Shown here: in pieces, positions 26,012 to 50,649 of the stretch
How positions within the stretch are numbered: the first letter of the stretch is position 1
How the letters are laid out: each line of letters starts with the position of its first letter
Notes under the pieces: model-generated
Told to the model about the DNA's origin: nothing
Database searches by the model: none
What the model saw: only the letters and a program-made list of their open reading frames with translations
Program-made: the position numbers and the translations under genes
Assembly: GCA_904380375.1 (NCBI GenBank)
Contig: CAJFID010000006.1
Coordinates: 1,330 to 65,329, forward strand
Length of the DNA stretch: 64,000 bases
Direction: 5' to 3'
From: Candidatus Avimonas intestinalis
GTDB taxonomy: Bacteria; Bacillota; Clostridia; Oscillospirales; Acutalibacteraceae

Positions 26012-26097
26012 CGCCGGAAGGTCTGTGCAAGCTTTGGCGGTTGCTTGTAAATCGAACCGCTTAAAAATTTAGGGTGAAGCAAAGGAGAGAAACGGTC

Positions 26098-27386: not shown

Positions 27387-27477
27387 GGCCGCCCTACCAA
27401 GACGGGATCCCCGGGGGACGGCGTTGCCTCCGTTCCCCGGGCCGGTTCCCCATTACAATAGGAGAGAAGAATACCAT

Positions 27478-29333: not shown

Positions 29334-29345
29334 GGGGGGCGCCCG

Positions 29346-30662: not shown

Positions 30663-30677
30663 GAAAGGCGGTATAGC

Positions 30678-32448: not shown

Positions 32449-32453
32449 ACGCG

Positions 32454-32952: not shown

Positions 32953-34428
32953 ATGAAAAAAGCTGTACGGCTTCTCAGCGCGGCGCTGATAGGCGCCTTG
33001 ATGGCCTTCCCCCTTGCCGGATGCAACCAGGAGCCGGCGGACACCCCGTCTTCGGATGGAGGCGGCAGCGAATTGACCGGCTCGCTGACGCTGGCTACCC
33101 TGCCTAAGTGGGTAGAGGACGTTACGGCCTATGTGGAGAACTTCAACGAGATCTATCCCAACGTCGTGGTGGAGATCATCGGCTTTGAGGGGACGGGCAA
33201 CGATTATCTGACCGCACAGGCCGCCGTGACGGACCTCCCCGACCTGATTTACGGCTTTTCCTCCGACAGCAACGTCCGGTACTCGGTGGAGCAGGGCTGG
33301 GCCTATCCGCTGGACGATTACGTCAATGCGGATCCCGAATTTGAGGAGATCAATACCGACGCGCTGCAGGCGTATACCTATGGCGATCAGCTCTACGGGC
33401 TGCCCTATGAGCTGGAATTCGACACGTTTGTTATCAATGCGGACCTGCTCGACACCCTGAACCTTGATATGCCCGAGATGGACTGGACGCTGGACGAGTA
33501 TATGGATCTGCTCAAAAAGGCGACCACCACCGAATATTCCGGCCAGAACGCGCTGGGGAATTTTTCCCAGAAGCTGACGGGGATTTTCGGGTCGGAAAAC
33601 GACCTGGGGGCCCATGGGTATAATCGGGAGGCCAATACCGTCAACCTGACCGATGGCTCCTGGGTCAGCGCCCAGCATTTTATCAAGGAAATGAAGGACA
33701 TCCCCGGCCTGATCTCGGATAACATGAAGGATCAGGAGAAGCGCAACGCCGGCCAGCTGGACGACTATCAGAAAAAATTCGGCGAGAACGCCGACGCCGC
33801 CCGCGAGGGCAAGGTGCTGTTTATGTTTAAGGCCAGCTGGGATTGGCAGTGGGTCAACTCCCTGGCCAACGACTGGCAGTATCTGCCCCTGCCCCATCCC
33901 GATGGCCAGCCCAGCCGGCAGTCGATGCATACCAAATGGGCGATGATGATGTCGACGACGGAATACCCGGACGCGGCGTTCGCCCTCCTCAAGCACCTCA
34001 CCTACGGCAAGGACGGCAACGTCAGCAAGCTGGAATACCTCAAGAACAAGCTCAACGAGTCCGGTGAGCCGGCCATGGAATTCTATATCCCTGTCACCAG
34101 CAATGACGAGGTCAACGCGGCGTTCCGCGATCTCGGCTTTGTCCCGGAGGGGCTGATGTGGCTGTACGAGAACATGGATACCGGCGCGTATGAGACTTTC
34201 CGCTCCGACTGGTATAAGGACGTTCCCGGCTGGGGGGATGTTTCCTCCAACATGAGCCAGCGTGCTATCCAGTGCGAAAACGGCGAGGTGCAGCCGGAGG
34301 CGGTGGCCAAGGAGACCGAAACGATGTGCAACGAGATCCTGGCGGAGCAAAAGGCGATCAGCGACGAAGCGATCGCCGCCGCGCAGGCCTCTTTTGCCGA
34401 AATCCGCGCGCAGGTGGAAGGCCAGTGA
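32953..34428 (+). CDS. carbohydrate ABC transporter substrate-binding lipoprotein (SBP family 1)
   Basis: 491 aa. Signal plus lipobox MKKAVRLLSAALIGALMAFPLAGC. Size and context are typical of a CUT1 SBP. Confidence 0.82.
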   Translation: MKKAVRLLSAALIGALMAFPLAGCNQEPADTPSSDGGGSELTGSLTLATLPKWVEDVTAYVENFNEIYPNVVVEIIGFEGTGNDYLTAQAAVTDLPDLIYGFSSDSNVRYSVEQGWAYPLDDYVNADPEFEEINTDALQAYTYGDQLYGLPYELEFDTFVINADLLDTLNLDMPEMDWTLDEYMDLLKKATTTEYSGQNALGNFSQKLTGIFGSENDLGAHGYNREANTVNLTDGSWVSAQHFIKEMKDIPGLISDNMKDQEKRNAGQLDDYQKKFGENADAAREGKVLFMFKASWDWQWVNSLANDWQYLPLPHPDGQPSRQSMHTKWAMMMSTTEYPDAAFALLKHLTYGKDGNVSKLEYLKNKLNESGEPAMEFYIPVTSNDEVNAAFRDLGFVPEGLMWLYENMDTGAYETFRSDWYKDVPGWGDVSSNMSQRAIQCENGEVQPEAVAKETETMCNEILAEQKAISDEAIAAAQASFAEIRAQVEGQ

Positions 34429-34461
34429 TAGACCGAGTGCGGCTTTCCTAGGCTGCCGAAG

Positions 34462-34537
34462 CCCGGCCCGGTGCGGGAAAGCGCCGGGCCGGGAGGCCGC
34501 CGCTCCCCGCCGCCGCGGGAGCCGGCGCCCGCTTTTT
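34462..34537 (+). terminator. intercistronic hairpins between the two SBP genes (possible partial terminator)
   Basis: 10-bp stem CCCGGCCCGG / CCGGGCCGGG (34462-34493), then GCGGG...CCCGC followed by TTTTT (34515-34537). Confidence 0.3.
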
Positions 34538-34565
34538 AAGTAAGCGGCGGAGGAAAGGGGCTCGT

Positions 34566-37373
34566 ATGAGAAAGCGGAAAAAAGCATGCTCCCTGGTTTC
34601 CTGCCTGGCGGTGGCCGCCGGGATGCTTGGAGCCGCCGGCGCTCCGGCGGCCGCCGCATCCGCGGCCCCGCAGGCGGAATGGCTGGCCATCCCGCCGGAG
34701 GACGTGGCCGCCCGCTACGCCGTGGAGGACGGCTTGGCCCTTGAGGCGGGGGATTCCGTTGAGATCACCCTGGATATCCCCCGCGAAGGCGAATACCGGC
34801 TGGCCCTGGTTTACCGGCAGGACGAATATCCCGCCTTCGGCAATACCGGGGAGCTGGTCATCAACGGCGAAGAACGGGCCGGCTTCAATCTGGGCGGCGT
34901 TTGGTACGACGAGCAGGAGGAGCCGCAGCTGGACCGGTATGGCAACGAGGTCGTGAGCGGCAGCGCCTTTGTGCAAGGGGCGGTCACCCAATATCTGAGC
35001 AGGGAAACCGACTACTACCGTCTCCAAAGCACCTACCTTCTCAAGGAGGGGGCCAATACCCTGGCCCTGACGGTTTCGGAGCTCCCGGTCACCGTCTACG
35101 AATTGATAGCGGTGCAGCCGGCCGCTTACAGCGGGCTTTCCGGCACGGCGGAAAAAAACGGGCGGCAGGTTGCAATCCAGGCGGAGGACTACGTTTGGAA
35201 ATCGGATTCCTATATCCACGCCGGCAATGCGCAGGACGCGGATGTGACCCCTTACGAAGTCGAGCGCAAAAGGCTCAATGTCCTGGACGGCTCCACGTTT
35301 GACACCCACCGCCAGAAGGTGGTGTATCAATTCTATGTGGAGCAGGAGGGCGATTACCGGATCGCGCTGCGGTATAACCAGGATTCCAAAAAGGGGATGA
35401 GCGTTTACCGCACGATTGCGGTGGACGGCCGGGTGCCGGACGCCTGCTTTGAAAGCGTCTCCTTTGCCTATACCGGCCTGGATTATGTGACCCAGACCGT
35501 GACGGACGGCGACGGTGAGGCATGGATCCACCTGACCCAGGGCTGGCACACCCTATCCGTCATCGCCACCGCCGCCCCCGTGGCCGCGTACCAGGAACGG
35601 CTGACGCAAACGCTTGAGGAGATCAGCGCGGCGGGCGTGGAAGTCAAAATGATTACCGGCGGACAGAACGACGAGAACCGGACCTGGAATATTGAGGAAT
35701 ACCTCCCCACCATTGTGGACGACCTCAACCGCTGGGCCGACGAGTTGGACGCGATATACGGCGAGCTGGAGCAGCTGGCCGGACAGAAACCCTCGTTTGC
35801 TTCCGCCCTGCCGAAGTCCGCCCAATACCTGCGCAGCGCCGCCTCTTCCCCCCGCACCCTGCCTTCCAAGACCACCAAGATCTTTGAGGGCTCCGGCTCG
35901 GTGGCCCAGATGATCGGCGACCTGATTACCCCGCTGCTCCAGCAGCAGCTGACCCTTGACCAGCTGTTTGTATACAGCGCGGACCAGCCGGCGGAGGAAT
36001 ACCCCGGTTTATTCCAGCGGATCCTGAACGGGATCCAGCATTTCCTGCTCTCCTTTTCGGCCGACTACAACGGCTTTGCGGACAGCGGCTTGCAGGAGGA
36101 TGCCCTTGACGTCTGGGTGAACCGCCCTTTGATGGCGGTGGAGACGCTCCAGATGCTGGCGGACGCTTCCTTTACCCCTGCCACCGGCATCCCGGTCAAG
36201 GTGACCATCATGCCCAGCGAGGATAAGCTGACCCTGGCCAACGCCGCGCAGGAAACCCCGGATATCGCGATGGGGCTGTCCCTGAGCAAGCCGTACGAGC
36301 TCGGCCTGCGGGGCGCGGTGGCCGACCTGTACGAATTCGACGATTTTCTTGATTACTACGGCGAAAATTACGACCTCCGGCTGCTGATCCCCCTTTGGGT
36401 GGACGGCAAAATGAGCGGCGTGGTGGAGAGCCGGAACTTCCAGGTGCTCTTTTACCGCAAAGACATCCTTGAGCGGCTCGGCCTGGAAGTCCCGGACACC
36501 TGGGAGGATGTCAAGCAGATGATGCCGGAGCTCAAGCGCAACGGCATGAACTTCCATGTGGCGCTGGCTTCCCACACCGGCAACAAGCCGATCGCGACCA
36601 CCTCGTATTATTTCGTCCAGAACGGGGCGGAGCTGTATTCCTCCGATGGGATGACCACCGCGATCAATCAGGAAAAAGGGCAGGAGGCCTTTGAGCTGCT
36701 GACCGACCTGTTTAATGTGTATTCCCTGCCGGTCACGACCGAGAATTTCTTTAACAGCTTCCGTTACGGCCGCATCCCGATCGGCATCTCCAACCTGGAC
36801 ACCTATATCCGCCTGAAAAACGCGGCGCCGGAAATCGCCGGGCTGTGGGATATCGCCCTTTCCCCCGGGATAGAGGATGAGCAGGGCGTCATCCACCGCG
36901 ACCAGACCAGCGCGGGCGAGACCGCCGTCATCATGCAGCGCACGGATCAAAAGCAGGAGGCGTGGGCTTTCCTCAAGTGGTGGCTTTCCACCGACGTGCA
37001 GGAGGAATACGGCTTTATCATGCAGACCAAGTTCGGCCCGTCCTTTATCTGGAATACCGCCAACGAGGAGGCGTTCCGGTCGGTCGACATTGAAAAGCGG
37101 CATATGGACGTGATTTTCGGGCAGTGGGAATGGACCTACGAGGTGCCGCTCCATCCCGCCTCCTATATCCTTGAGCGGGAGCTGTCCAACGCCTGGAACG
37201 ACGTGGTGGTCAAGAAAAAGGAGGTCCGCTCCTCGCTGGACAAAGCGGTCATCAACATTGACCGGGAGATAGAGCGGAAGCTTCAGGAATTCGGCTATGT
37301 GAAAAACGGGGAGATGGTCCAGCCCTACCGGCTGGCCACCCTTGAACGGATACAGGAAGGGGGAGGCGCATGA
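34566..37373 (+). CDS. 935-aa secreted fusion: two N-terminal beta-sandwich (CBM-like) modules plus an SBP family 1-like domain
   Basis: Signal peptide. Internal repeat [13 protein letters not shown] / [13 protein letters not shown] about 190 aa apart. The C-terminal ~550 aa resemble extracellular solute-binding proteins. Its stop overlaps the permease start (ATGA). Confidence 0.75.
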
Positions 37374-38260
37374 CGCGGATGAAGGCTTGGGTGGACAGGA
37401 AAGCGCATTGGGCCCTTTTGGCGCCGTTTTTGCTGCTGTTCGCCCTGTTTATCCTGCTGCCGGTGCTGGCGGCGGTCGGCCTCTCCTTTACCTACTTCAA
37501 TTCAATCGAGGCGCCCACCTGGGCCGGGCTGCAAAATTACTTATCCCTTCTCAAGGATCCGGTATTTATGCAGAAAATCCTCCCCAATACCATCCAGTTC
37601 GCCGTCATTGTAGGCCCGGGCGGGTTCCTGCTCTCCTTTATCATGGCCTGGCTGCTCGCCCAGCTGACCCGCGGGCCCCGCACGGTGCTGGCCGTGATCC
37701 TGTACTCGCCGTCAATGATCGGCGGTGTGACGATGGCCGTGGTATGGCGGGTTATTTTCAGCAGCGACCAGGCGGGCTACCTCAACAGCCTGCTGCTGTC
37801 CCTGGGGGCCATCAACGAGCCGGTCAACTGGCTGCAGAGCGAGGCCCTGCTGATGCCGATTATGATCCTGGTTTCGCTTTGGAGCTCGATGGGCGTCGGC
37901 TTCCTGGCGATGCTTTCCGGCATCATCAACGGGGACCGGGAGGTTTATGAGGCGGCGTATATTGACGGGGTATCCAACCGCTTTCAGGAAATTGTGTATA
38001 TCACCATCCCCACCATGAAGCCGCAGATGCTTTTCGGCGCGGTGATGGCCATCGTCAACACCTTTAAAACCAGCGACATCGGCGTACAGCTCTCCGGCTC
38101 CAACCCGACGCCGCAGTATGCAGGCAGCCTGATTGTCAACCATATCCAGGACTACGGGCTGATCCGGCATGAAATGGGATATGCGGCGGCGCTCTCCGTC
38201 GTGCTCCTTCTCCTCATCTTTTTCTCTTCCCAGGTTGCCAACAAGCTGTTTTCGGAATAA
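37370..38260 (+). CDS. carbohydrate ABC transporter permease (MalF-like), pair 1
   Basis: 296 aa with 6 TM helices. EAA motif [25 protein letters not shown]. Confidence 0.9.
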
Positions 38261-38283
38261 ACGCAAAGGAGCGTAGGTTTCTG

Positions 38284-39153
38284 ATGGCAATGAAGAGCGT
38301 GGGGATCAACCCCTCGAAATTCCATAAAAGCCAGATTAAGTTTTACCTGATCCTCCTGCCTGTGACGGCCTTTATGGTCCTGCCGATCCTGTATATCGTC
38401 ATGCATGCGCTCAAGCCGATTGACGAGCTGTTTTTGTACCCGCCCCGCTTTTTTGTGCAGAACCCGACGCTGGACAATTTTATCCGGCTGTTCAGCCAGA
38501 CGGAGCTGACCCAGATCCCGGTTTCCCGCTTTTTGTTCAACAACATCGTCATTGCGGCAGTCACCGTCGCCGCGACGATCTATGTCAGCGTGGCCGCGGG
38601 GTATGCCCTGTCCAAAATCCGTTTCCGGGGGCGCCGGGCCATCTTTACCGTCAATAAGCTGGCGCTGATGTTTGTGGCGGTGGCGGTGCAGATCCCGCGG
38701 TACATCGTGATCACCAAGATCGGGCTGAGCGATAACTTCCTGGTCCATATCCTGCCGGAGCTCGCCATGCCGGTGGGACTGTTCCTGGTCAAGCAGAATA
38801 TTGACCAGATCCCTGATTCCCTGATTGAAGCGGCGGAAATAGACGGCGCGACCCAATTCTACGTCCTGCGTAAAATCATTGTGCCGCTGGTCAAGCCGGC
38901 CCTGGCCACCGTCGCGATCCTTTCCTTCCAGGCGGCCTGGAACAGCACGGCGGAATCCAACACCTTTATCAATGACGAGAGCATCAAGTCCTTTGCCTAT
39001 TATATCAACCAGGTTGCCAACACCGGCAACGGCCTGGAAGGGCAGGGGATGGCGGCCGCTGCGGCGCTGCTGATGTTCCTGCCCAACCTGATCCTCTTTA
39101 TTATCATGCAGTCCAGGGTGATGGATACGATGACCAACGCCGGGATTAAGTAA
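38284..39153 (+). CDS. carbohydrate ABC transporter permease (MalG-like), pair 1
   Basis: 289 aa. EAA motif EAAEIDGATQFYVLRKIIVPLVKP. Confidence 0.9.
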   Translation: MAMKSVGINPSKFHKSQIKFYLILLPVTAFMVLPILYIVMHALKPIDELFLYPPRFFVQNPTLDNFIRLFSQTELTQIPVSRFLFNNIVIAAVTVAATIYVSVAAGYALSKIRFRGRRAIFTVNKLALMFVAVAVQIPRYIVITKIGLSDNFLVHILPELAMPVGLFLVKQNIDQIPDSLIEAAEIDGATQFYVLRKIIVPLVKPALATVAILSFQAAWNSTAESNTFINDESIKSFAYYINQVANTGNGLEGQGMAAAAALLMFLPNLILFIIMQSRVMDTMTNAGIK

Positions 39154-39165
39154 GGGGTGGTACGC

Positions 39166-41211
39166 GTGAAAAAAGGCGGTATGCTTTGCGTGCTGCTGGC
39201 GGTTCTGGCCACGGCCCTCGGGAGCCTGCCCGCCTTGGCCGGGAATTCAACGGCGAATACCTATACCATATCGGTCAACGGGGAGTGGATCAAGACCCAG
39301 GACGCCTACCTGCCGGGGCAGGTGTTTTTCAAGGACGAAGGGCTGAACCGTCCGTCCGACCTGGTTGTGGCGGGGCGGCGGATGTATGTGGCGGACTCGG
39401 ACAATGCGCGGATCCTGGTCAAGGATCTGGACAACCCGCAGGCGCCCTCGTCTGTGCTGGGGCAGGACGCGCTTAACCGCCCGACCGGGATCCATGTGGC
39501 GGCGGATGGGACCCTGTATATTGCCGACTCCGGCGCGAAAACCGTGGTGGTCATGGCCCCGGACGGGACGGTGCAGATGACCATCGGGGAACCGGACTCC
39601 CCCCTGTTCGGCGCCGACGCGATGTGGGAGCCCTCCAAGGTGGCGGTAGATGGGCGGGGCAATATCTATGTGATGTGCGAGGGCGGCTTCAACGGCTTGG
39701 TGCAGTTTAGCCGGGACGGGGAGTTCCTGGGGTATTTCGGGGGGAACCAGACCTCCAAAACCTTCATTGAAGCGGTCCAGGACATCTTCTTTTCCCCGGA
39801 GCAGATCGCCAAGCTCTTCAACCGCAAGCCCGCGGCCTTTACCAACCTGGCGATTGACGGGGACGGCCTGATCTATACCGTTACGGCGGACGGCGAAGGC
39901 AACGTGGTCAAAAAGCATAACGTCGCCGGGACCAACATCCTTTCCGCCTCGCGGAGCCGCACGATGTTTGACGACATCAATTTTGCGGATATCACGGTCG
40001 GTAAGTGGGGCCAGATTTATGTGGTCTCAACGACCGGGGTGATCAACGAATACGACTATAACGGCAATATCCACTTTTCCTTCGGCGGGCTGTCCATCGC
40101 CACCGACCTAAACGGCCTGTTTACCGTGCCGTCCGGCATCGCCGTTGATGATAACGACTGCGTGTATGTCCTGGACTACGAAAAGGGGATCGTCCAATCG
40201 TTTTACCCGACCGCGTTCGCCAACCTGACCCATCAGGCCCTGCGCCTGTATGACCGCGGCCGGTACCAGGAGAGCATCGGCTACTGGCGGCAGGTGCTCC
40301 AGCTGGCCGGCTCCTCCCGCGTGGCGCATTACGGGCTGGGGCAGTGCTACCTGAATCTAAAGGACTACGAAAACGCGGCGTATCATTTTCGAATCGCTTC
40401 CGACCCCGTCTCCTATTCGGACGCGTATTGGGAGCTGCGGGATCAATGGATGGCCGACCACACCGTTTTTGTCGCGCTGGGGGTACTGGCGCTGTGCGTC
40501 CTGCTGTTCGTGCTGGTGCATAAGCGCCGGCGGCGGGAGGGCCGGTACGTCTATTCCCCTTACGCCTGCCCGCCCGGAAAGGGGCTGTGGGGGGACCTGA
40601 AGTTTATGGCGTTTTCCTGCCGGCATCCGATTGACGCGGCGCTTTACATCAAAAGCGGGCAGAAGGCGTCCAATCGGAGCGCCGTGGCAGTCGGCATCCT
40701 GGGGATCGCTGTATACCTGTTTGATTACGCCTGCCGCGGTTTCATTTTCAACAGCCATGACCTGCGGAATACCCAATACCCGGTGCTGCTGGCGACCGTG
40801 GTCGTCCCGGTGCTGCTCTGGATCGTCTGCAACTATATGATTGCCGCGATCCAAGCAGGGGACGGCGCCCTGCGGTATGTGTTCCGCTCGACCGTTTACG
40901 CGTTCAGCCCGTATATCCTGATCACGCCCTTTGCCACCATCCTGTCGCTGGTCCTGACCAGGGACGAGGGCTTCCTCCTCAGCATGATGGATACGGTGGC
41001 CATGCTTTGGGTCGCAGTCAACCTGTTCCTGTGCATTAAGAAGGTGCAGAGCTTTACCTTTTGGGAGACGGTCAAAAACATCCTGCTCACCCTGTTCCTG
41101 ATCGTGGTGGTGCTGCTTGCCGCGACCTTGGTTTATTCGCTTTGGAATTCGATTTCCGAATTTGCCGTGTCTGTCTACAGGGAGGTGTTCTACCGTGGGT
41201 TTGACAAATAA
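39166..41211 (+). CDS. exported NHL-like six-blade propeller + TPR-like segment + C-terminal Yip1-like polytopic membrane domain
   Basis: Signal peptide, then six repeats of the x-[IL]Y[VI]-x-D type (RRMYVADSDNARILV, DGTLYIADSGAKTVVV, RGNIYVMCEGG, DGLIYTVTADG, WGQIYVVSTTG, NDCVYVLDYEKG). TPR-like GRYQESIGYWRQVLQL...LKDYENAAYHF follows. The last ~230 aa have a TM helix plus ~5 further TM helices. The start is ambiguous: GTG at 39157 or 39166, or ATG at 39181. Confidence 0.72.
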   Translation: MKKGGMLCVLLAVLATALGSLPALAGNSTANTYTISVNGEWIKTQDAYLPGQVFFKDEGLNRPSDLVVAGRRMYVADSDNARILVKDLDNPQAPSSVLGQDALNRPTGIHVAADGTLYIADSGAKTVVVMAPDGTVQMTIGEPDSPLFGADAMWEPSKVAVDGRGNIYVMCEGGFNGLVQFSRDGEFLGYFGGNQTSKTFIEAVQDIFFSPEQIAKLFNRKPAAFTNLAIDGDGLIYTVTADGEGNVVKKHNVAGTNILSASRSRTMFDDINFADITVGKWGQIYVVSTTGVINEYDYNGNIHFSFGGLSIATDLNGLFTVPSGIAVDDNDCVYVLDYEKGIVQSFYPTAFANLTHQALRLYDRGRYQESIGYWRQVLQLAGSSRVAHYGLGQCYLNLKDYENAAYHFRIASDPVSYSDAYWELRDQWMADHTVFVALGVLALCVLLFVLVHKRRRREGRYVYSPYACPPGKGLWGDLKFMAFSCRHPIDAALYIKSGQKASNRSAVAVGILGIAVYLFDYACRGFIFNSHDLRNTQYPVLLATVVVPVLLWIVCNYMIAAIQAGDGALRYVFRSTVYAFSPYILITPFATILSLVLTRDEGFLLSMMDTVAMLWVAVNLFLCIKKVQSFTFWETVKNILLTLFLIVVVLLAATLVYSLWNSISEFAVSVYREVFYRGFDK

Positions 41212-43477
41212 GCTGCTGGCGGCGGCTGCGGCCGCGGCGCTTTTGTGCGGGCTGTCCGTCCGGGGAGAGGAAGACGGTGCGCTTGCGGGCAGCTATGGGC
41301 TCCCCGAGGTGATCGCGGACCTTGAAGTCCATTCGGCCCGGCACTCCCGGGCGGAGGATTATGCCCAGGCGGCGGCCCTGCTGACCACGCAGGGGTACGA
41401 GCCGCTCCTTGAGGACGATCTCGCCGCCGTTTACCTCCGGGAGGAAAACGCCTCTCTCCGGGTGGTGGATAAGCGCAGCGGCTATGTCTGGGGCGGCCTG
41501 GACGGCGACGAGGAGATGAACAAGACCTGGACCTCCTTCGGAAACGGCATGGTGGCCATTGACGTGGTGGATTCCAAGCTGGTGTCCAAAAAACAGGGGC
41601 TGGGATATCCGGAGGAGACCACCTTTTCCTATACGGTGGACGGCGCCAGCGCCCGCTTTGAGGCGGAATTTGCCGAATACGGGATTTCCTTTGGGTTTAC
41701 GGTGGCGCTTGATGACGGCGATCTCCTGTTTTGCATGGATACGTCCCAGATCCAGGAAACGGGGGATTACTGGGTTCAAAACGTGTATTTTGTCCCCTTC
41801 CTGGGCTGCACCCGGGAGGACGAGACGCCGGGGTATTTCTTCCTCCCCGACGGGTCCGGCGCGCTGATGCGGTTCCAGAAAGCCAGCGCCTACAACGTGG
41901 TGTATGACCAGCGGGTCTACGGCAAGGACTATGCCATTGACCAGACGGCGCAGACCAACGACCTGAACTCCTCCCGCCCCAATGACTTCTTAGTAGGGGA
42001 GCACGCCATCACCCTACCAGTTTTCGGCGGGGTGCACGGGGTCAAGCAGCACGGCTTTGTTGCGGAAATTACGCAGGGCGCGGAATATGCCGCCGTAACG
42101 GCGACGCCGGCCGGGATGACCACCCCGTATAACTGGATCGCCGCCCGCTTTATCGTGCGGCAGAATTATATGCAGCCCACCTCCAAGAGCGGGGCCGGTA
42201 TCCAGGTGTCCCAAAAGCAGGCGAACCAGTATACGGCCTGCGTCCGGTACCACTTCCTGGACGGGGAGGAAGCCGACTATGTCGGGATGGCAAAATGGAC
42301 GCGCACCCGCCTTCAGCAGGAGGGGGCGCTGGCCGACCGGACGGATGGCGCGGAGGGGGGGATCCCCCTGCAGCTTGACGTGATTATGGCGGACGTCCGC
42401 CGGGGGCTGCTTTCCAACGGCGTTGAGGCGGTCACGACGGCAAGCCAGGTTTCCGGGCTGATGGATTTTTTGGAGGGGGAGGGGATCGGCAACGTCCAGT
42501 ATGTGCTCAAGGGCTGGCAGTCCGGCGGCCTGAACGGCTACAACCCCGAAAAGCCCGGCTTTGAAAAACGCAGCGGCAGCGCGGCGGAGTATCGGGCCCT
42601 GATTGCCAAAGCGTCCGCGGCCGGCGGCACGGTGGTGTTTTTTGAGGACCCGGTCGATCTGACCGAAAAGCAGGCGGGCTATTCCGGGTATACTGCCCAC
42701 ACCATGTCCCAGATGCCGGTAGAGGTGGTGCTCGAAAACGACACCCTTTTGTACAACACCCGGCTGTATACCGGGCTGGACATCCTTCCCCGGATGATGG
42801 AGGCATCCCGCGCGTTTTATGGGGAGCACGATATCCGCCATGTAGCGCTGGGCAGCGTCGGCGGAGTGCTCTACGCCGACCAATACCGCGGGGAGGAGGT
42901 CTACCGCGACCAGGCGCTCAGCCTCCTGACGCAGGCGGTGGAGGCTTATGCGCAAAGCGGCCTGGAAACGGCGTTTTACACGCCGAACCGCTACATGCTC
43001 CCCTACTGTGCGGCGTATTACGACATGCCGCTGACCAACAGCCAGTTCCAATTTGAGACCGATTCCGTCCCCTTCCTGCCCATTGTGCTGCGGGGGAGCG
43101 TCGACTATTTCGCCCCGTATGTCAACGAAGGGCTGTTTTCCCAGACGGATATCCTCAAGATGGTGGAATATGGCGCGTATCCCAGCTATATTCTCACCGG
43201 CAAGCAGAATTTTGAATTGTCCGATACTGCGTCCAACCAGCTGTATTCCACCTATATAGACGAGTGGACGGAGAATATGGTTTCCACCTACCGCGAGCTG
43301 GACCAGGCGCTGCGGCCGGTCGCTGGCTCGGCCATTGAGGGCCGCGAGGTGCTGCAGGAAGGCGTCGTCCGGGTCGACTACGCCAACGGGGTGGCCATTT
43401 ACGTCAATTACCTGGGCTCCGCCGTCACCGCCGACGGCGTGACGGTGCCTGCGCAGGATTATCTGGTGAGGGGGTGA
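41195..43477 (+). CDS. 760-aa exported hypothetical protein (possibly DUF5696-like; function unknown)
   Basis: GTG at 41195 behind AGGGAGG, overlapping the upstream gene by 17 nt. N-terminal hydrophobic signal. I recognise no catalytic motif. The DUF5696 label rests only on my recollection of similar loci and is unverified. Confidence 0.55.
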   Translation: MGLTNKLLAAAAAAALLCGLSVRGEEDGALAGSYGLPEVIADLEVHSARHSRAEDYAQAAALLTTQGYEPLLEDDLAAVYLREENASLRVVDKRSGYVWGGLDGDEEMNKTWTSFGNGMVAIDVVDSKLVSKKQGLGYPEETTFSYTVDGASARFEAEFAEYGISFGFTVALDDGDLLFCMDTSQIQETGDYWVQNVYFVPFLGCTREDETPGYFFLPDGSGALMRFQKASAYNVVYDQRVYGKDYAIDQTAQTNDLNSSRPNDFLVGEHAITLPVFGGVHGVKQHGFVAEITQGAEYAAVTATPAGMTTPYNWIAARFIVRQNYMQPTSKSGAGIQVSQKQANQYTACVRYHFLDGEEADYVGMAKWTRTRLQQEGALADRTDGAEGGIPLQLDVIMADVRRGLLSNGVEAVTTASQVSGLMDFLEGEGIGNVQYVLKGWQSGGLNGYNPEKPGFEKRSGSAAEYRALIAKASAAGGTVVFFEDPVDLTEKQAGYSGYTAHTMSQMPVEVVLENDTLLYNTRLYTGLDILPRMMEASRAFYGEHDIRHVALGSVGGVLYADQYRGEEVYRDQALSLLTQAVEAYAQSGLETAFYTPNRYMLPYCAAYYDMPLTNSQFQFETDSVPFLPIVLRGSVDYFAPYVNEGLFSQTDILKMVEYGAYPSYILTGKQNFELSDTASNQLYSTYIDEWTENMVSTYRELDQALRPVAGSAIEGREVLQEGVVRVDYANGVAIYVNYLGSAVTADGVTVPAQDYLVRG

Positions 43478-43483
43478 GCGGCT

Positions 43484-44404
43484 ATGGCGCAATCGGAAAA
43501 ACGGCCTGCCCGCACGACGGGGCAAAAAGGGCGGAGCAGGGGCCCGCGGCTGCGCAGCCGGACGCGCAACATGCTGGTAGGGTATGCGTTTATCCTTCCA
43601 TGGCTGTTCGGGCTGCTGGTATTTACCGCCTGGCCCGTGATCTATTCGATGTACCTGAGCCTGTGCGAGGTGGCCGTGACCACCCGCGGCATTGACGCGC
43701 AGCTGACCGGCCTGGTGAATTATGTCCGGGCCTTCCGGGAGGACACCGTCTGGAGCGGGTATTTGATTAACCAGGCGGCGTATGTGCTGATGTGCACCCC
43801 GCTCATCCTGGTGTTTTCAGCGATTATGGCCCTGCTGCTCAACCAAAAGGTGCGCGGTCGCCTTTTCTTCCGGGCCCTGTATTTCTTCCCGGTCATCATC
43901 ATCAGCGGCCCGGTGATGACCAAGCTGGTTGATAACAACGCCTCAAGCATCATCACAGCGGAGGGTAACGCCATTTACCAGGTGTTTTCCCAGATCCCAT
44001 ATATCGGGGACGCGATCATTTACGCCTTCAGCAACCTGGTGCTGATTTTATGGTACTCCGGCGTGCAGGTCCTGATTTTCCTGGCCGGCCTGCAGAAAAT
44101 CGACCGATCAATGTATGAGGCGGCTCGCATTGACGGCGCATCCGGATGGGCAATTTTCTGGAAGATCACGATCGTGCAGATGAAGCCCATGGCGCTGATC
44201 AACGCGATCTTTACCATTGTGCAGCTGACCGGCTTTTCGGACAACGAGGTCAACACCCATATCAGCAGCCAGATGTTTGAAACGGGGAAGATCTATTCCT
44301 ATTCGGCGGCGCTGGCCTGGAGCCATTTCCTTGTGGCCCTGCTGATGATCGGCCTGGCGTTTCTGATCCTGCGCAGCCGGCGGGACAAGGAGGTGAAAGC
44401 ATGA
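43484..44404 (+). CDS. carbohydrate ABC transporter permease (MalF-like), pair 2
   Basis: 306 aa. EAA motif EAARIDGASGWAIFWKITIVQMKP. Confidence 0.9.
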   Translation: MAQSEKRPARTTGQKGRSRGPRLRSRTRNMLVGYAFILPWLFGLLVFTAWPVIYSMYLSLCEVAVTTRGIDAQLTGLVNYVRAFREDTVWSGYLINQAAYVLMCTPLILVFSAIMALLLNQKVRGRLFFRALYFFPVIIISGPVMTKLVDNNASSIITAEGNAIYQVFSQIPYIGDAIIYAFSNLVLILWYSGVQVLIFLAGLQKIDRSMYEAARIDGASGWAIFWKITIVQMKPMALINAIFTIVQLTGFSDNEVNTHISSQMFETGKIYSYSAALAWSHFLVALLMIGLAFLILRSRRDKEVKA

Positions 44405-45399
44405 AGCGTATCATGGAATCCCTGCGCCCGCCGGCGCTGAGCGGCATGGCGGGCAAAGCGGCCGGGACCGCCCGGGCCGCTGCGCGCAAGCTCCGGCTCC
44501 GCCGGCGGCTGCTTGGTTCGGCCGATTCCTTGGGGCTTCTCAAAAAGCTGGCCGTATATTTTTTCCTGATTACCATCGGCTTTGTGTATCTGTACCCGCT
44601 TTTGTATATGGTCGTCAACAGCCTGATGACCACGGAGGATTTGATTGACCCGGCGGTCAACTGGGTCCCTACCTCCCTATACCTGGACAACTTCCGGGTG
44701 GCCTTCCGGGTGCTGGATTTTGGCCGGACGATCGGGTATTCCCTGCTGATCTCGAGCGTCTGCGCGGTGTCCCAGACGCTGATCGGCGCGGTGGCCGGCT
44801 ACGGCTTTGCCCGCTTTCGCCTGCCGGGCAAGGGGCTGCTGATGGTCCTGCTGGCGGCCACGTTCCTTGTGCCGGAGCAGGTGACGATGGTCCCCCGGTA
44901 TATCCTGTTCAACGCCTACGGTATGAACGATTCCCTCTGGCCGGTTTTCCTCCCCGCTCTGCTGGGGCAGGGGGTAAAGGGCGCCCTGTTCATCCTGGTG
45001 TTTGTCATGTTTTTCCAGTCGTATCCCCTTGCGCTGGACGAAGCGGCCGAGATTGACGGGGCCGGCAAGCTGCGGGTTTTCCTGCGGATCGCCCTCCCGA
45101 TGGCCGTGCCGGCCATCGTGGTATCCCTGATTTTCTCCTTTGTGTGGAATTGGAACGAGACGTTTAATATTTCCCTGTACGACAAGGATATCCAGACCCT
45201 GCCCATGCAGCTCAATGCTTTCGTGTCCCGTTACCAGGAAATGTACCCCACCACCGACGGGAGCGAGGTGAACCGCCTCAACGAAGGGATCCAAATGGCC
45301 GCCACGCTGATTACCATCGCGCCGCTGGTGGTGATGTATATGGCGCTGCAAAAGCAGTTTGTGGAAAGCATTGAACGCACCGGCCTGACCGGGGAATAA
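44401..45399 (+). CDS. carbohydrate ABC transporter permease (MalG-like), pair 2
   Basis: 332 aa. EAA motif EAAEIDGAGKLRVFLRIALPMAVP. ATGA overlap with the upstream permease. Confidence 0.88.
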   Translation: MKRIMESLRPPALSGMAGKAAGTARAAARKLRLRRRLLGSADSLGLLKKLAVYFFLITIGFVYLYPLLYMVVNSLMTTEDLIDPAVNWVPTSLYLDNFRVAFRVLDFGRTIGYSLLISSVCAVSQTLIGAVAGYGFARFRLPGKGLLMVLLAATFLVPEQVTMVPRYILFNAYGMNDSLWPVFLPALLGQGVKGALFILVFVMFFQSYPLALDEAAEIDGAGKLRVFLRIALPMAVPAIVVSLIFSFVWNWNETFNISLYDKDIQTLPMQLNAFVSRYQEMYPTTDGSEVNRLNEGIQMAATLITIAPLVVMYMALQKQFVESIERTGLTGE

Positions 45400-45498: not shown

Positions 45499-45526
45499 TT
45501 GAAAGAGGGGGAACATATGTTAAAAT
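45499..45526 (+). promoter_or_regulatory. putative sigma-A promoter for lacI-family gene/GH2 (TTGAAA-16 nt-TAAAAT, TG extended -10)
   Basis: -35 at 45499-45504, TG at 45518-45519 and -10 at 45521-45526, about 28 nt upstream of the ATG at 45555. Confidence 0.5.
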
Positions 45527-46547: not shown

Positions 46548-46568
46548 CGCAAGCAAGGAGGTTTGCGC

Positions 46569-48362: not shown

Positions 48363-48550
48363 GGCCTTGCGTGCGGCGGCCGTCCCTTCACCCGGCGGGA
48401 AACCGGCCGGCGGAGGGACGCAGAAGCAGCAGATGCCTATAGAAGCAGGCAGAAACGGCCCGAAGGCCGCGGAAACGAATAGCAGCGGAGGAAGGGCATA
48501 AGGCGCGCAGAGAGCACAGGGAACACAAGGAACACAAGGAACGGGAAAAA

Positions 48551-48590
48551 GCGTCTAGATTAACGATAAGGTTATCGTTAATCTAGACGC
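48551..48590. promoter_or_regulatory. perfect 40-bp palindrome containing 30-bp element copy B (TAGATTAACGATAAGGTTATCGTTAATCTA)
   Basis: 19-bp arms GCGTCTAGATTAACGATAA / TTATCGTTAATCTAGACGC around a central GG. The core 48556-48585 is 27/30 identical to 21339-21368. It lies between GH2 and the Asp-box paralogues. Confidence 0.5.
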
Positions 48591-48812
48591 CCGGCCGATG
48601 CGACGCGCCGAAGATCCGGGCCGCGATCAAAAGCCGCGGCTGTTTGGCGGGTGCCGCCGGCGGACGGCGTTTCCCATCCCTGTCGATTCCGCGGGACGTC
48701 CTCCGCCTTTGAAGAAGGGGTGACGCTCCCGGACATATGAGCGATGGAAAGCGCCTCTGCGGGGAAATAAACTCCATGGGAGAAAATTCGACAGAAAGAA
48801 GGGGTGTGCCGT

Positions 48813-50633: not shown

Positions 50634-50649
50634 AAGGAAGGGATACGTT

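What the first reader, a model, noticed from the sequence alone, without database searches (positions are those of the whole stretch)
32953..45399. Composite ATPase-less ABC import locus: two SBPs and two permease pairs split by a propeller-Yip1 membrane protein and a 760-aa unknown exoprotein
Eight co-directional genes have overlaps or gaps of no more than 23 nt after the SBP1 hairpin. In order they are: a lipoprotein SBP, a 935-aa CBM-SBP fusion, permease pair 1, an NHL-propeller/TPR/Yip1 protein, a 760-aa signal-bearing protein with no recognisable motif (its start overlaps the previous gene by 17 nt), and permease pair 2 (ATGA-coupled). No nucleotide-binding subunit is encoded. That is normal for CUT1 systems using a shared MsmX/MsmK-type ATPase. 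Two full permease pairs in one transcription unit is not normal, nor is a pair of non-transporter proteins wedged precisely between them. The coupling suggests the propeller-Yip1 and 760-aa proteins are stoichiometric parts of the uptake machinery. A Yip1-family membrane protein is known as an accessory to an ABC system in Bacillus (YknW with YknXYZ). I know of no characterised carbohydrate importer with such components. This is my best candidate for an undescribed system in the window.
Basis: partly seen in the sequence, partly recalled or inferred. Interest (0 to 1): 0.78.

Follow-up and report, generated by a model that had tools for sequence, protein, structure and literature searches.

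The report
Conserved two-translocator sugar-uptake cassette
These eight genes are one copy of a widespread, uncharacterised gene cassette with a fixed gene order: two sugar-importer channels, one or two sugar-binding proteins, a glycosidase-like protein and a propeller-bearing membrane protein, a likely new kind of multi-part carbohydrate-uptake machine.

Summary
The eight co-directional genes are real and lie at the stated coordinates. They are not a chance composite.

**Synteny.** The order giant SBP, permease pair 1, NHL-TPR-Yip1, DUF5696, permease pair 2 recurs in every related locus with enough flank:
- 80 genome loci reached through DUF5696
- 80 metagenome loci reached through NHL-Yip1
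- 3 very distant family members

The loci come from Clostridia, Bacilli, Thermotogota, Chloroflexota and Acholeplasmatales. A lipoprotein SBP usually comes first. The seven core proteins co-diverge (r = 0.85-0.96). Only 4 of 163 loci have an ABC ATPase nearby.

The "760-aa unknown" is Pfam DUF5696 (E = 1e-160). Its confident predicted fold is closest to GH129/GH101 glycosidases. Whether it is catalytically active is unresolved.

**Substrate.** Neighbouring enzymes differ by lineage:
- beta-1,2-glucan genes in Bacilli and Chloroflexota
- beta-1,3-glucan genes in Thermotogota
- GH31/GH65/GH66 in Clostridia
- GH2 and sialidase-like proteins in this window

**Reading.** This is most likely the uptake module of glycan-utilisation loci in bacteria that lack SusC/D-type systems. 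It would be powered by a shared ATPase encoded elsewhere, with the two ecto-proteins as functional partners. Physical association is inferred, not shown. No paper in the searched library describes it.

The parts
32953..34428 (+). SBP1: 491-aa lipoprotein solute-binding protein (lipobox LAGC). It is the most variable component of the cassette and is sometimes absent.
   Evidence: ORF. Weak PDB SBP matches, best E = 4.5e-10. An SBP1-family HMM finds it in most loci, but not in 6 Clostridial loci or in L083. A lipobox is present in 38/48 homologues.
34511..34537 (+). Terminator-like hairpin plus T-run in the 137-nt SBP1/SBP2 spacer. Probably an attenuating stem-loop that lets SBP1 be expressed in excess.
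   Evidence: The median SBP1-to-SBP2 spacer across loci is +138 nt, while the other junctions are tight.
34566..37373 (+). Giant SBP, 935 aa. Order of parts: signal peptide, two beta-sandwich (CBM-like) domains, a helical spacer, and a C-terminal SBP_bac_1 domain.
   Evidence: Pfam SBP_bac_1 E = 2e-19 with a weak CBM35 hit. The SBP domain is closest to Lin1841 (5ysb), E = 4e-16. The domain layout comes from a low-confidence AF2 model, pLDDT 50. Present in 62/63 and 56/56 related loci.
37370..38260 (+). perm1A: MalF/UgpA-type ABC importer permease. It overlaps the giant SBP gene by 4 nt (ATGA).
   Evidence: BPD_transp_1. EAA loop conserved in 55/55. Mean identity 65% across phyla.
38284..39153 (+). 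perm1B: MalG/UgpE-type ABC importer permease.
   Evidence: BPD_transp_1. EAA motif in 51/55 by strict pattern. Mean identity 61%.
39157..41211 (+). NHL-TPR-Yip1 membrane protein. Order of parts: signal peptide, six-blade NHL propeller and TPR outside the cell, one TM helix, a 53-aa K/R-rich cytoplasmic loop, and a five-TM Yip1 domain.
   Evidence: Pfam NHL, TPR and Yip1. PDB NHL-propeller and TPR matches. Hydropathy topology. Conserved motifs TQDAY, RHPID, NDGEG and KEIH. At least 1911 related clusters, all unnamed.
41195..43477 (+). DUF5696 protein, 760 aa. Order of parts: signal peptide, N-terminal beta-sandwich, (beta/alpha)8 barrel, C-terminal beta-sandwich. GH129/GH101-like fold. Its start overlaps the NHL-Yip1 gene by 17 nt.
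   Evidence: PF18952 E = 9.8e-161. AF2 pLDDT 87, pTM 0.88. Foldseek best matches: GH129 5opq E = 9e-32 and 5wzn, then GH101, GH36, GH31 and GH97. The sequence profile also reaches GH129 at E = 5e-4. Family size is 3816 clusters at E <= 1e-30.
43484..44404 (+). perm2A: MalF/UgpA-type permease with a basic N-terminal extension.
   Evidence: BPD_transp_1. EAA motif in 53/55. 25% identical to perm1A.
44401..45399 (+). perm2B: MalG/GlcU-type permease. It overlaps perm2A by 4 nt (ATGA).
   Evidence: BPD_transp_1. EAA motif in 54/55. 23% identical to perm1B.
45555..46547 (+). LacI-family regulator, the likely local regulator, with a promoter-like site at 45499-45526.
   Evidence: Pfam LacI and Peripla_BP. 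Promoter scan. A LacI gene flanks the cassette in 28 loci.
46563..52482 (+). Probable cognate catabolic enzymes of this copy: GH2 (46563-48362) and two sialidase-like BNR proteins (48804-50633 and 50650-52482).
   Evidence: Pfam. GH2 is closest to the 7xyr beta-glucuronidase (E = 1e-101) and to a beta-D-galactofuranosidase. The BNR proteins give weak sialidase matches. The same genes follow the cassette in L003.

Best explanation
The locus is one member of a widespread cassette that is inherited and transferred as a unit. Seven genes are invariant, and a lipoprotein SBP is usually added. It most likely serves as the uptake module of glycan-utilisation loci in bacteria without SusC/D-type systems.

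**Shown.** The cassette encodes:
- two complete CUT1-type ABC importer translocators, each a heterodimer of EAA-loop permeases
- no ATPase
- a variable lipoprotein SBP
- a giant secreted SBP with N-terminal beta-sandwich domains
- a secreted three-domain GH129/GH101-like protein (DUF5696)
- a membrane protein that carries an NHL propeller and TPR outside the cell on a Yip1 five-helix anchor

**Inferred.**
- Both translocators are energised by a shared MsmX/MsmK-type ATPase encoded elsewhere.
- The giant SBP and the NHL and DUF5696 ectodomains capture polymer or long oligosaccharides at the cell surface. DUF5696 may also trim them.
- Neither the giant SBP nor DUF5696 appears to have a lipid anchor (DUF5696: 72/77 homologues; the giant SBP was judged on the window copy only). 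They would therefore be held at the translocators by the NHL-TPR-Yip1 protein.
- The imported oligosaccharides are broken down in the cytoplasm by the phosphorylases and exo-glycosidases encoded next door.

**Substrate.** Specificity varies with lineage. In this window the neighbours are LacI, a GH2 and two sialidase-like proteins, plus an upstream rare-sugar operon. The substrate here is therefore not the beta-glucans seen in other lineages, and it remains unidentified.
For: - **Synteny in both directions and at extreme divergence:**
- **Tight junctions across loci.** The pairs SBP2/perm1A, NHL-Yip1/DUF5696, DUF5696/perm2A and perm2A/perm2B have median gaps of -4, -8, -4 and -1 nt.
- **Co-divergence.** Identity matrices of the seven proteins correlate at r = 0.85-0.96. 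The whole cassette has moved between phyla: L007 (Thermotogota) and L005 (Bacillota) share 62% mean identity.
- **Coupling to an ATPase.** The EAA loops are conserved in all four permeases.
- **No local ATPase.** ABC ATPase ORFs occur in only 4 of 163 loci and never inside the cassette. The window has no MsmX-type ATPase.
- **DUF5696 fold:**
- **Location of the ecto-proteins.** DUF5696 has a signal peptide and no lipobox in 72/77 homologues. NHL-Yip1 has the topology described above.
- **Catabolic neighbours.**
  - GH144-like, GH35, GH3 and GH94 SOGP in Bacilli, Chloroflexota and Thermoanaerobacteraceae.
  - GH16, GH3 and GH161 in Thermotogota.
  - GH31, GH65, GH66 and GH30 in Clostridia.
- **Import of sizeable oligosaccharides.** In many Bacillaceae loci the only endo-beta-1,2-glucanase homologue has no signal peptide.
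- **Prior note on missing NBDs.** PMC6484121 independently remarks that ABC systems in GH161 loci mostly lack NBDs and probably share one.
Against: - There is no direct evidence of physical interaction, transport or enzyme activity.
- The putative catalytic positions of DUF5696 are not strictly conserved.
  - The canonical beta4-end position is Gly in the window protein and is D/E in only 70/118 homologues.
  - D562 is D/E in 107/118 and D623 in 117/118.
  - The only invariant acids, D219 and D245, lie in the N-terminal domain.
  - The barrel is the least conserved domain.
- A GH129/GH101/GH36/GH31-type fold is known for alpha-glycosidases. That fits poorly with beta-glucan loci if DUF5696 were the depolymerase. 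Several loci also carry their own secreted endo-enzymes.
- Some loci have one SBP for two permease pairs, which the simple 'two importers' picture does not explain.
- Only the best 80 hits of each scan were inspected.
- Start codons in the other loci were chosen heuristically.
Confidence: 0.55

Rival explanations
1. Co-regulated but separate parts. The cassette would be two ordinary, independent CUT1 importers. SBP1 would serve one permease pair and the giant SBP the other. A free extracellular enzyme or lectin (DUF5696) and an unrelated membrane protein would share the operon only because the set is useful together and moves as one unit. There would be no complex.
For: - The two permease pairs and the two SBPs are ancient paralogues, not a recent duplication.
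- The SBP1 hairpin and the SBP2/perm1A overlap look like standard importer operon grammar.
- Extra enzyme genes can be inserted inside the cassette without destroying it. L026 has a 1649-aa GH31-dockerin gene between NHL-Yip1 and DUF5696.
- PMC6484121 read what is probably the same arrangement in Acholeplasma as two adjacent clusters.
Against: - The gene order is invariant over four phyla, down to 23% identity, with no locus holding only half of the set.
- Some loci lack SBP1, so one permease pair would have no SBP of its own.
- Junctions overlap right through NHL-Yip1, DUF5696, perm2A and perm2B.
- perm1A/B are unusually conserved whatever the neighbouring enzymes are.
- DUF5696, and on the window copy the giant SBP, have no obvious lipid anchor in monoderm hosts.
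Confidence: 0.27
2. Enzyme plus anchor. DUF5696 would be an active surface glycoside hydrolase founding a new family related to GH129/GH101. NHL-TPR-Yip1 would be its membrane tether and substrate-binding partner. Together they would depolymerise the glycan, and the two importers would simply take up the products.
For: - The fold match to GH129/GH101 is strong: E = 9e-32, TM-score 0.62 normalised to the query and 0.71 to the target.
- The 'GW' beta2 motif is shared with NagBb.
- Acidic residues are conserved at 562, 623 and 658 (D/E in 91-100%).
- The protein has a signal peptide.
- Its gene overlaps the NHL-Yip1 gene, with a median gap of -8 nt.
Against: - D and E interchange at the candidate catalytic positions, and the window protein has Gly at the canonical beta4-end site.
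- The barrel is less conserved than the flanking sandwiches.
- One alpha-glycosidase-type fold would have to act on beta-1,2, beta-1,3 and alpha-glucan contexts.
- Separate secreted endo-enzymes are present in many loci.
Confidence: 0.13
3. Not an uptake system. The cassette would serve another surface process, such as sensing or signalling, cell-envelope glycan remodelling or export, with the permease-like proteins co-opted for that role.
For: - The cytoplasmic loops of the Yip1 half carry the strongest motifs (RHPID, NDGEG, KEIH), which suggests an intracellular partner.
- perm1A/B and the SBP domain of the giant SBP are conserved regardless of the apparent substrate.
Against: - BPD_transp_1 permeases with EAA loops and cluster-B SBPs are known only from importers (established knowledge of type I ABC importers).
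- The cassette is flanked almost everywhere by LacI regulators and cytoplasmic glycan-degrading enzymes.
Confidence: 0.04
4. Chance insertion of two unrelated genes between two transporter operons in this genome only.
For: None was found.
Against: The same arrangement occurs in every testable related locus, starting from either inserted gene.
Confidence: 0.01

Closest known systems
CUT1-family ABC sugar importers that share an orphan ATPase (MsmX in Bacillus subtilis, MsmK in streptococci, MsiK in Streptomyces; TC 3.A.1.1)
   Same: Both have MalF/MalG-type permease heterodimers with EAA loops, cluster-B SBPs, no ATPase gene in the operon, and a stem-loop after the SBP gene.
   Different: This cassette has two translocator pairs in one unit. 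One SBP is about 935 aa, with about 460 extra N-terminal residues. Two non-transporter proteins are fixed between the pairs. Some loci have one SBP for two pairs.
Lin1841-Lin1843 sophoro-oligosaccharide ABC importer of the Listeria innocua SOGP cluster (PDB 5ysb; cited in PMC8861115 and PMC12369401)
   Same: The window's giant SBP has Lin1841 as by far its closest solved relative (E = 4e-16). In Bacilli and Chloroflexota the cassette sits beside SOGP, GH3, GH144-like and GH35 genes. Both systems are ATPase-less.
   Different: Lin1841 is a plain 397-aa SBP with one permease pair and no accessory proteins. The window has no beta-1,2-glucan enzymes. The giant SBP of a beta-1,2 locus (L043) is not closest to Lin1841.
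GH129 (NagBb alpha-N-acetylgalactosaminidase; ZgGH129 3,6-anhydro-D-galactosidase) and GH101 endo-alpha-N-acetylgalactosaminidases
   Same: All share the three-domain architecture of N-terminal beta-sandwich, (beta/alpha)8 barrel and C-terminal beta-sandwich. These are the best Foldseek matches. There is a weak profile-level sequence link and a shared GW motif.
   Different: Sequence identity is 11-14%. The catalytic Asp/Glu could not be mapped and the candidate positions are not invariant. The invariant acids lie in the N-domain. DUF5696 occurs only inside this transporter cassette.
Bacteroidota Sus-like systems, in which SusC/D transporters assemble with surface glycan-binding proteins and surface enzymes (comparison from my own knowledge)
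   Same: The logic is the same: a transporter, surface glycan binders and a glycosidase-like protein are encoded together, the modules are exchanged between substrates, and one genome can hold several copies (contig names).
   Different: The parts are entirely different: ABC importers in place of a TonB-dependent transporter, and no SusC/D. Assembly into a complex is not shown here.
YknW (Yip1 family) with the YknXYZ ABC exporter of Bacillus subtilis
   Same: A Yip1-domain membrane protein is encoded with ABC transporter genes.
   Different: YknXYZ is an exporter with a membrane-fusion protein. Here the partners are importer permeases, and the Yip1 domain carries a 430-residue NHL-TPR ectodomain. 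No YknX/Y/Z homologues are present.
GH161/GH94 beta-1,3-glucan loci described in PMC6484121 (for example Acholeplasma laidlawii)
   Same: That paper reports two adjacent ABC permease sets, one 'missing' its SBP, with no NBD, next to GH16, GH3, GH161 and GH94 genes. This matches the cassette context seen here in Thermotogota, in L084 and in an Acholeplasmatales MAG.
   Different: The paper treats them as two clusters and does not mention the NHL-Yip1 or DUF5696 genes. I could not inspect the A. laidlawii genome itself.

Membership tests
CUT1-type ABC importer (TC 3.A.1.1) | Two integral-membrane subunits of the BPD_transp_1 family, each with an EAA coupling loop | tested here: met
   All four permeases hit PF00528 above the cut-off. 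The EAA-x-DG motif is read in all four window proteins and is conserved across 55 loci.
CUT1-type ABC importer (TC 3.A.1.1) | Extracytoplasmic solute-binding protein of the SBP_bac_1 (cluster B) type | tested here: met
   Giant SBP: PF01547 at 71 bits against a cut-off of 26. SBP1: no Pfam hit, but PDB SBP matches down to E = 4.5e-10.
CUT1-type ABC importer (TC 3.A.1.1) | MalK/MsmX-type nucleotide-binding subunit | not testable with these tools
   It is absent from the cassette and from the 64-kb window, and from 159 of 163 related loci. The rest of the genome is not available.
CUT1-type ABC importer (TC 3.A.1.1) | ATP-dependent import of a sugar or oligosaccharide | not testable with these tools
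   This needs an experiment.
Pfam DUF5696 (PF18952) | Full-length match to the family HMM above the gathering score | tested here: met
   536.7 bits against a cut-off of 25.6, covering profile positions 5-612 of 612.
Glycoside hydrolase family GH129 (also considered: GH101) | Three-domain fold with a (beta/alpha)8 catalytic barrel | tested here: met
   AF2 pLDDT 87. Foldseek to 5opq and 5wzn: E = 1e-27 to 9e-32, TM-score 0.60-0.76.
Glycoside hydrolase family GH129 (also considered: GH101) | Significant sequence similarity to family members (the basis of CAZy classification) | tested here: inconclusive
   Single-sequence search finds nothing at E <= 1. Profile searches give E = 5e-4 to 9e-3 over partial regions, with 11-14% identity.
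Glycoside hydrolase family GH129 (also considered: GH101) | Conserved catalytic Asp nucleophile and Glu acid/base on the barrel | tested here: inconclusive
   The alignment to NagBb stops about 10 residues before its catalytic Asp. The beta4-end position is Gly in the window protein and is D/E in only 70/118 homologues. D562 is D/E in 107/118 and D623 in 117/118. No model coordinates were available for checking the pocket.
Yip1 family (PF04893) | HMM match, and five transmembrane helices | tested here: met
   The window protein scores 28.0 bits against a cut-off of 28.6 over profile positions 13-172 of 173. PF04893 is recorded for nearly all of the 120 homologues listed. Hydropathy gives five TM helices after the linker TM.
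YknWXYZ-type system | Yip1 protein working with a YknX membrane-fusion protein and a YknYZ ABC exporter | tested here: not met
   None of the eight proteins has an MFP, ABC exporter or FtsX-type domain.
Beta-1,2-glucan (sophoro-oligosaccharide) utilisation locus | Co-located SOGP (GH94), GH144-type endo-glucanase and GH3 beta-glucosidase | tested here: not met
   tblastn finds no homologue of these markers anywhere in the window. The feature is met in most Bacilli and Chloroflexota copies of the cassette.

The most novel reading that the evidence does not exclude
The seven core proteins would assemble into one surface and membrane supercomplex, a counterpart in SusC/D-lacking bacteria of the Bacteroidota surface transporter complexes.

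In this reading the Yip1 anchor docks the NHL-TPR ectodomain, the GH129-like DUF5696 and the giant SBP onto two ABC translocators. The machine would then capture and import very long or cyclic glycans essentially intact, for example beta-1,2-glucans of DP 17-25 or laminarin chains, for cytoplasmic phosphorolysis.

DUF5696 would act as a non-hydrolytic or chain-feeding module rather than as a classical glycosidase.
Probability: 0.2. Interest if true: 0.88.

Novelty: new variant of a known kind. Interest (0 to 1): 0.75.

Why it matters
ABC sugar importers of Gram-positive bacteria are thought of as an SBP, two permeases and an ATPase. Surface enzymes are assumed to act separately.

This cassette occurs in at least 578 species-level genomes. 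DUF5696 has about 3,800 clusters at 50% identity and NHL-Yip1 has at least 1,900 clusters at 90% identity. The cassette keeps two translocators, a giant SBP, a glycosidase-like protein and a Yip1 membrane protein locked in one order across four phyla. That pattern points to an unrecognised multi-component uptake machine.

It matters for four reasons:
- It sits in the loci for beta-1,2-glucan, beta-1,3-glucan and alpha-glucan use. In the papers read here, uptake by bacteria without SusC/D-type systems is described only as a plain SBP-permease ABC system with a shared ATPase.
- It gives a first functional context to two large families of unknown function: DUF5696 and the bacterial NHL-Yip1 proteins.
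- Cultured Bacillaceae, Paenibacillus and Fervidobacterium carry the cassette, so the idea is directly testable.
- Gut Clostridia hold several copies per genome. It may therefore be a major, overlooked route of glycan capture in the gut.

Tried and rejected
1. **Chance insertion.** Rejected by two-way synteny.
2. **Motif-less exoprotein.** Rejected: the protein is DUF5696 with a GH129-like fold.
3. **Mapping the GH129 catalytic residues by sequence.** A full-length profile and a barrel-only profile align to NagBb/ZgGH129 only in part, and both stop before the catalytic Asp.
4. **AF2 model of the giant SBP.** Only 8 homologues were retrieved. The model has pLDDT 50, so I used it only for a rough domain outline and did not fold-search it.
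5. **Lin1841 similarity as a family-wide substrate clue.** Rejected: the giant SBP of a beta-1,2 locus does not share it, and the window has no beta-1,2 enzymes.
6. **A single substrate for all cassettes.** Rejected: the flanking enzymes differ by lineage.
7. **A local ATPase.** The window's ABC ATPases are Opp-type or exporter-type.
8. **Regulatory RNA.** There are no Rfam matches in 27000-53000.
9. **Literature.**
   - The searches 'DUF5696', 'PF18952' and 'Yip1 + NHL repeat + ABC transporter' return nothing.
   - The single paper matching 'Yip1 + solute-binding protein + ABC transporter + permease' is an unrelated host-microbiome interaction study.
   - The beta-1,2-glucan papers mention only the Lin1841-type transporter.
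   - The Bacillus weihaiensis laminarin transcriptome paper gave no usable information on the cassette.
10. **YknW analogy as family membership.** Rejected: no MFP and no exporter.
11. **Does cassette similarity track substrate rather than taxonomy?** Mixed result. L063 groups with the beta-1,2 Bacilli, while L036 groups by taxonomy.

Full report
**Observation**

They are a 491-aa lipoprotein SBP, a 935-aa SBP, two permeases, a 684-aa NHL-TPR-Yip1 protein, a 760-aa protein and two more permeases. The same DNA is in NCBI MAG GCA_900761355.1, with essentially the same gene calls.

Junctions are tight:
- ATGA overlaps at SBP2/perm1A and at perm2A/perm2B.
- A 17-nt overlap at NHL-Yip1/DUF5696.
- Gaps of 3-23 nt at the other junctions, if NHL-Yip1 starts at the GTG at 39157. 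That start gives a proper K/R-rich signal peptide. NCBI starts the gene at 39190.
- The exception is the 137-nt spacer after SBP1, which holds a terminator-like hairpin with a T-run at 34511-34537.

Pfam and NCBIfam confirm four BPD_transp_1 permeases, SBP_bac_1 in the C-terminal half of the giant SBP, and NHL, TPR and Yip1 in the fifth protein. SBP1 has no Pfam hit but matches solved sugar SBPs. There is no ATPase in the cassette. The only ABC ATPases in the 64-kb window are Opp-type (oligo_HPY domain) or fused exporter-type.

- The 760-aa 'unknown' is a full-length member of Pfam DUF5696 (E = 9.8e-161).
- The 'CBM' label for the giant SBP rests only on a sub-threshold CBM35 hit.

**Is the arrangement conserved?**

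I aligned 24 DUF5696 homologues and scanned one genome for each of 185,579 species. At least 578 loci encode a relative, and the best 80 were fetched with 10-kb flanks. tblastn with the eight window proteins shows the same order in 78 of 80 loci. The other two are frameshift-like splits.

| Gene | Present / testable, starting from DUF5696 | Present / testable, starting from NHL-Yip1 |
|---|---|---|
| NHL-Yip1 | 73/73 | query |
| DUF5696 | query | 65/65 |
| perm1A | 68/68 | 67/67 |
| perm1B | 70/70 | 70/70 |
| perm2A | 73/73 | 61/61 |
| perm2B | 71/71 | 59/59 |
| Giant SBP | 62/63 | 56/56 |
| SBP1 | 51/62 | not tested |

The second column is the reciprocal test. It used an NHL-Yip1 alignment against an independent collection of metagenome contigs.

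The carriers are Oscillospiraceae, Lachnospiraceae and other Clostridia, Bacillaceae, Paenibacillaceae, Thermotogota, Chloroflexota and an Acholeplasmatales MAG.

A family HMM raises the SBP1 count. It leaves six Clostridial loci in which the SBP1 slot holds a GH31, GH66 or esterase gene instead.

The most distant DUF5696 proteins I could reach (23-28% identity) still sit in the same cassette. In one of them the NHL and Yip1 parts are separate genes (L082). Another lacks SBP1 (L083).

The invariant core is therefore seven genes, and SBP1 is a frequent eighth.

**Unit of inheritance**

- Across 55 complete loci the pairwise-identity matrices of the seven proteins correlate at r = 0.85-0.96.
- A Thermotogota cassette is 62% identical, averaged over the seven proteins, to a Bacillota one. 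The set diverges and moves as one block.
- Median junction lengths across loci are +138 (SBP1/SBP2), -4, +19, +33, -8, -4 and -1 nt. Start codons were chosen heuristically. The NHL-Yip1, DUF5696, perm2A and perm2B genes are typically overlapping.
- ABC-ATPase-like ORFs occur in only 4 of 163 loci (2.4 Mb) and never inside the cassette.
- All four permeases keep the EAA coupling loop. They should therefore dock an ATPase encoded elsewhere, as in MsmX/MsmK-dependent CUT1 systems. That last step is inference from established knowledge.
- The two permease pairs are only 23-25% identical to each other, and the two SBPs are barely related. This is an old pairing, not a recent duplication.

**The two non-transporter proteins**

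*DUF5696.*
- AlphaFold2 gives a confident model (pLDDT 87, pTM 0.88). It has an N-terminal signal helix, a beta-sandwich, a (beta/alpha)8 barrel and a C-terminal beta-sandwich.
- Foldseek against the PDB puts GH129 first: ZgGH129 3,6-anhydro-D-galactosidase at E = 9e-32, and the NagBb alpha-GalNAcase. GH101, GH36, GH31 and GH97 follow.
- A sequence profile also reaches GH129 weakly (E = 5e-4). It aligns the shared 'GW' motif at the end of strand beta2.
- Catalytic competence is unresolved.
  - In 118 homologues the only invariant acids, D219 and D245, lie in the N-terminal domain.
  - The barrel acids interchange D and E: position 562 is D/E in 107/118, position 623 in 117/118, and position 658 in 118/118.
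  - The canonical beta4-end position is Gly in the window protein.
  - The barrel is less conserved than the two sandwiches.
- The N-terminus looks like a cleavable signal peptide without a lipobox in 72 of 77 homologues.

*NHL-TPR-Yip1.*
- It has a signal peptide, an ectodomain of about 410 residues (a six-blade NHL propeller plus TPR), one TM helix, a 53-residue K/R-rich loop and five Yip1 helices.
- It is conserved along its whole length.
- The strongest motifs in the membrane half (RHPID, NDGEG, KEIH) fall in predicted cytoplasmic loops.
- At least 1911 clusters of this protein exist. All are named 'YIP1 family protein' or hypothetical.
- DUF5696 has 3816 clusters at 50% identity with E <= 1e-30.

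**What the cassette is used for**

Clustering and annotating the flanking genes shows lineage-specific catabolic sets.

| Lineage | Genes next to the cassette |
|---|---|
| Bacillaceae, Paenibacillaceae, Chloroflexota, one Thermoanaerobacteraceae MAG | GH144-like (PF10091), GH35 of the GLMA/SGT type, GH3, GH94 1,2-beta-oligoglucan phosphorylase; directly downstream of perm2B |
| Thermotogota and L084 | GH16, GH17, GH3, a GH161 beta-1,3-glucan phosphorylase (E = 1.7e-264 to PDB 9qqk), GH94 |
| Clostridia | GH31 (often with F5/8 modules; in one locus with a dockerin, inserted inside the cassette), GH65, GH66, GH30 |
| This window | LacI, a GH2 closest to a beta-glucuronidase and to a beta-D-galactofuranosidase, two sialidase-like BNR proteins |

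The Bacilli/Chloroflexota set is the hallmark of beta-1,2-glucan catabolism as described in PMC8861115 and PMC12369401.

In many Bacillaceae loci the only endo-beta-1,2-glucanase homologue has no signal peptide. This implies that sizeable oligosaccharides enter the cell.

Upstream of the cassette in this window, and contiguous with it, lies an operon with an oxidoreductase, a sugar isomerase-like TIM barrel, a split transketolase and RpiB. No beta-1,2-glucan marker is anywhere in the window.

The SBP domain of the window's giant SBP is nevertheless closest to Lin1841, the sophoro-oligosaccharide SBP (E = 4e-16, with the next hit at 1e-5). The giant SBP of a beta-1,2 locus is not closest to Lin1841. 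I therefore do not use this similarity as a substrate call.

**Most likely mechanism**

*Shown:* the gene content, topology, fold, synteny, co-divergence, absence of an ATPase, and catabolic neighbourhoods.

*Inferred:*
- The cassette is the uptake module of glycan-utilisation loci in bacteria that lack SusC/D-type systems.
- Two ABC translocators are powered by a shared ATPase.
- The lipoprotein SBP1 is the least conserved component (22-35% identity). It probably carries much of the specificity.
- The giant SBP and DUF5696 are secreted. DUF5696 lacks a lipobox in 72/77 homologues. The window's giant SBP has an ambiguous signal that more likely is cleaved by signal peptidase I. I infer that both are kept at the membrane by the NHL-TPR-Yip1 protein. 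There they would capture the glycan, perhaps process it, and hand it to the translocators.
- Cytoplasmic phosphorylases and exo-glycosidases finish the job.

I give this reading 0.55. The main rival, at 0.27, is that the same genes are co-selected but act as separate parts. A narrower variant, at 0.13, makes DUF5696 the surface depolymerase with NHL-Yip1 as its anchor.

Several features fit a physical assembly better than the rival, but none proves it:
- perm1A/B stay 61-65% identical across phyla whatever the neighbouring enzymes are.
- The barrel of DUF5696 is its least conserved domain.
- Some loci have one SBP for two permease pairs.
- The conserved Yip1 motifs are cytoplasmic.

**Comparison with known systems**

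The cassette works like a CUT1 ABC importer with an orphan ATPase, and it meets the sequence-level criteria for one. The ATPase and the transport activity could not be tested.

- It is not a YknWXYZ-type system.
- It is not, in this window, a beta-1,2-glucan locus.
- DUF5696 is GH129/GH101-like in fold but cannot be filed in those families.

The nearest earlier sighting is in PMC6484121. That paper describes, in Acholeplasma laidlawii, a GH161 cluster with 'two permease components' and a 'missing' SBP, next to a GH94 cluster with ABC components. It remarks that most such loci lack NBDs. This is probably the same cassette read as two clusters, with no mention of the two middle genes.

No paper in the searched library mentions DUF5696 or PF18952, or combines Yip1 with NHL repeats and ABC transporters. 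The single paper matching Yip1 with SBP, ABC-transporter and permease terms is an unrelated interaction-prediction study.

**Verdict**

I rate the finding a new variant of a known kind: an ABC importer with a doubled translocator and two fixed accessory proteins from families of unknown function. Interest is 0.75.

Limits:
- Only the best 80 hits of each scan plus three distant members were inspected.
- Start codons in other loci are heuristic.
- The giant-SBP model is poor.
- The substrate of this particular copy is unknown.

Noticed in passing
window 27424-32936 (+): This operon is contiguous with the cassette. It encodes a GFO/IDH/MocA oxidoreductase, a xylose-isomerase-like TIM barrel, a 438-aa protein with no Pfam family (weak fucose-isomerase C hit), a split transketolase (N and C halves as separate genes) and RpiB, which ends 16 nt before SBP1. 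It looks like a rare-sugar catabolic pathway tied to the imported glycan. RpiB is also upstream in L002 and L004.
   Followed up: partly
window 46563-52482 (+): A GH2 is closest to a solved beta-glucuronidase (7xyr, E = 1e-101) and to a beta-D-galactofuranosidase. It is followed by two tandem 609/610-aa sialidase-like BNR paralogues. The same trio follows the cassette in L003. These genes hint at a non-glucan substrate for this clade.
   Followed up: partly
window 24767-27291 (+): Two tandem proteins of about 410 aa have only a faint Laminin_G_3 (concanavalin-like) signal. Their function is unknown.
   Followed up: no
window 1-14000, 14000-60000 and 60000-64000: GC content steps from about 0.55 to about 0.63 near 14 kb, and drops to about 0.50 after 60 kb. 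These may be island or assembly boundaries.
   Followed up: no
L020:14826-18047 (also L010, L014 and L084:15171-18344): The roughly 1060-1074-aa protein without a Pfam family beside Thermotogota cassettes is a GH161 beta-1,3-glucan phosphorylase (E = 1.7e-264 to PDB 9qqk). GH16, GH17 and GH3 genes accompany it, so those loci are laminarin-type.
   Followed up: yes
L026:4989-9935: A 1649-aa GH31 with F5/8-type C and dockerin domains is inserted between NHL-Yip1 and DUF5696 in a Ruminococcaceae genome. It is the only locus where that junction is broken.
   Followed up: partly
L082:7891-9991: In Paenibacillus sp. FJAT-27812 the NHL ectodomain protein (499 aa) and the Yip1 membrane protein (205 aa) are separate, overlapping genes. 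The fusion is therefore not obligatory.
   Followed up: partly
L021/L029, L009/L033 and L019/L032: Each pair of loci comes from one MAG, so some gut Clostridia carry at least two diverged copies of the cassette. This is similar to multiple polysaccharide-utilisation loci in one genome.
   Followed up: no
L043, L044, L046, L050, L051, L056, L064, L066, L076, L079 (first gene after perm2B): The GH144-like endo-beta-1,2-glucanase homologue in these Bacillaceae loci has no signal peptide. Chloroflexota loci have one lipoprotein copy and one cytoplasmic copy.
   Followed up: partly
window 34566-37373 versus L043:3150-6077: The window's giant SBP is closest to Lin1841 (a beta-1,2-oligoglucan SBP), yet the window has no beta-1,2 enzymes. 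The giant SBP of a genuine beta-1,2 locus is closest to other SBPs. This is unexplained.
   Followed up: partly
window 2909-8518 (+) and 13070-17139 (-): The window also holds a complete Opp/Dpp-type peptide ABC importer (two permeases, two oligo_HPY ATPases, an SBP_bac_5 protein) and two fused ABC exporter genes. None is a candidate ATPase for the cassette.
   Followed up: yes
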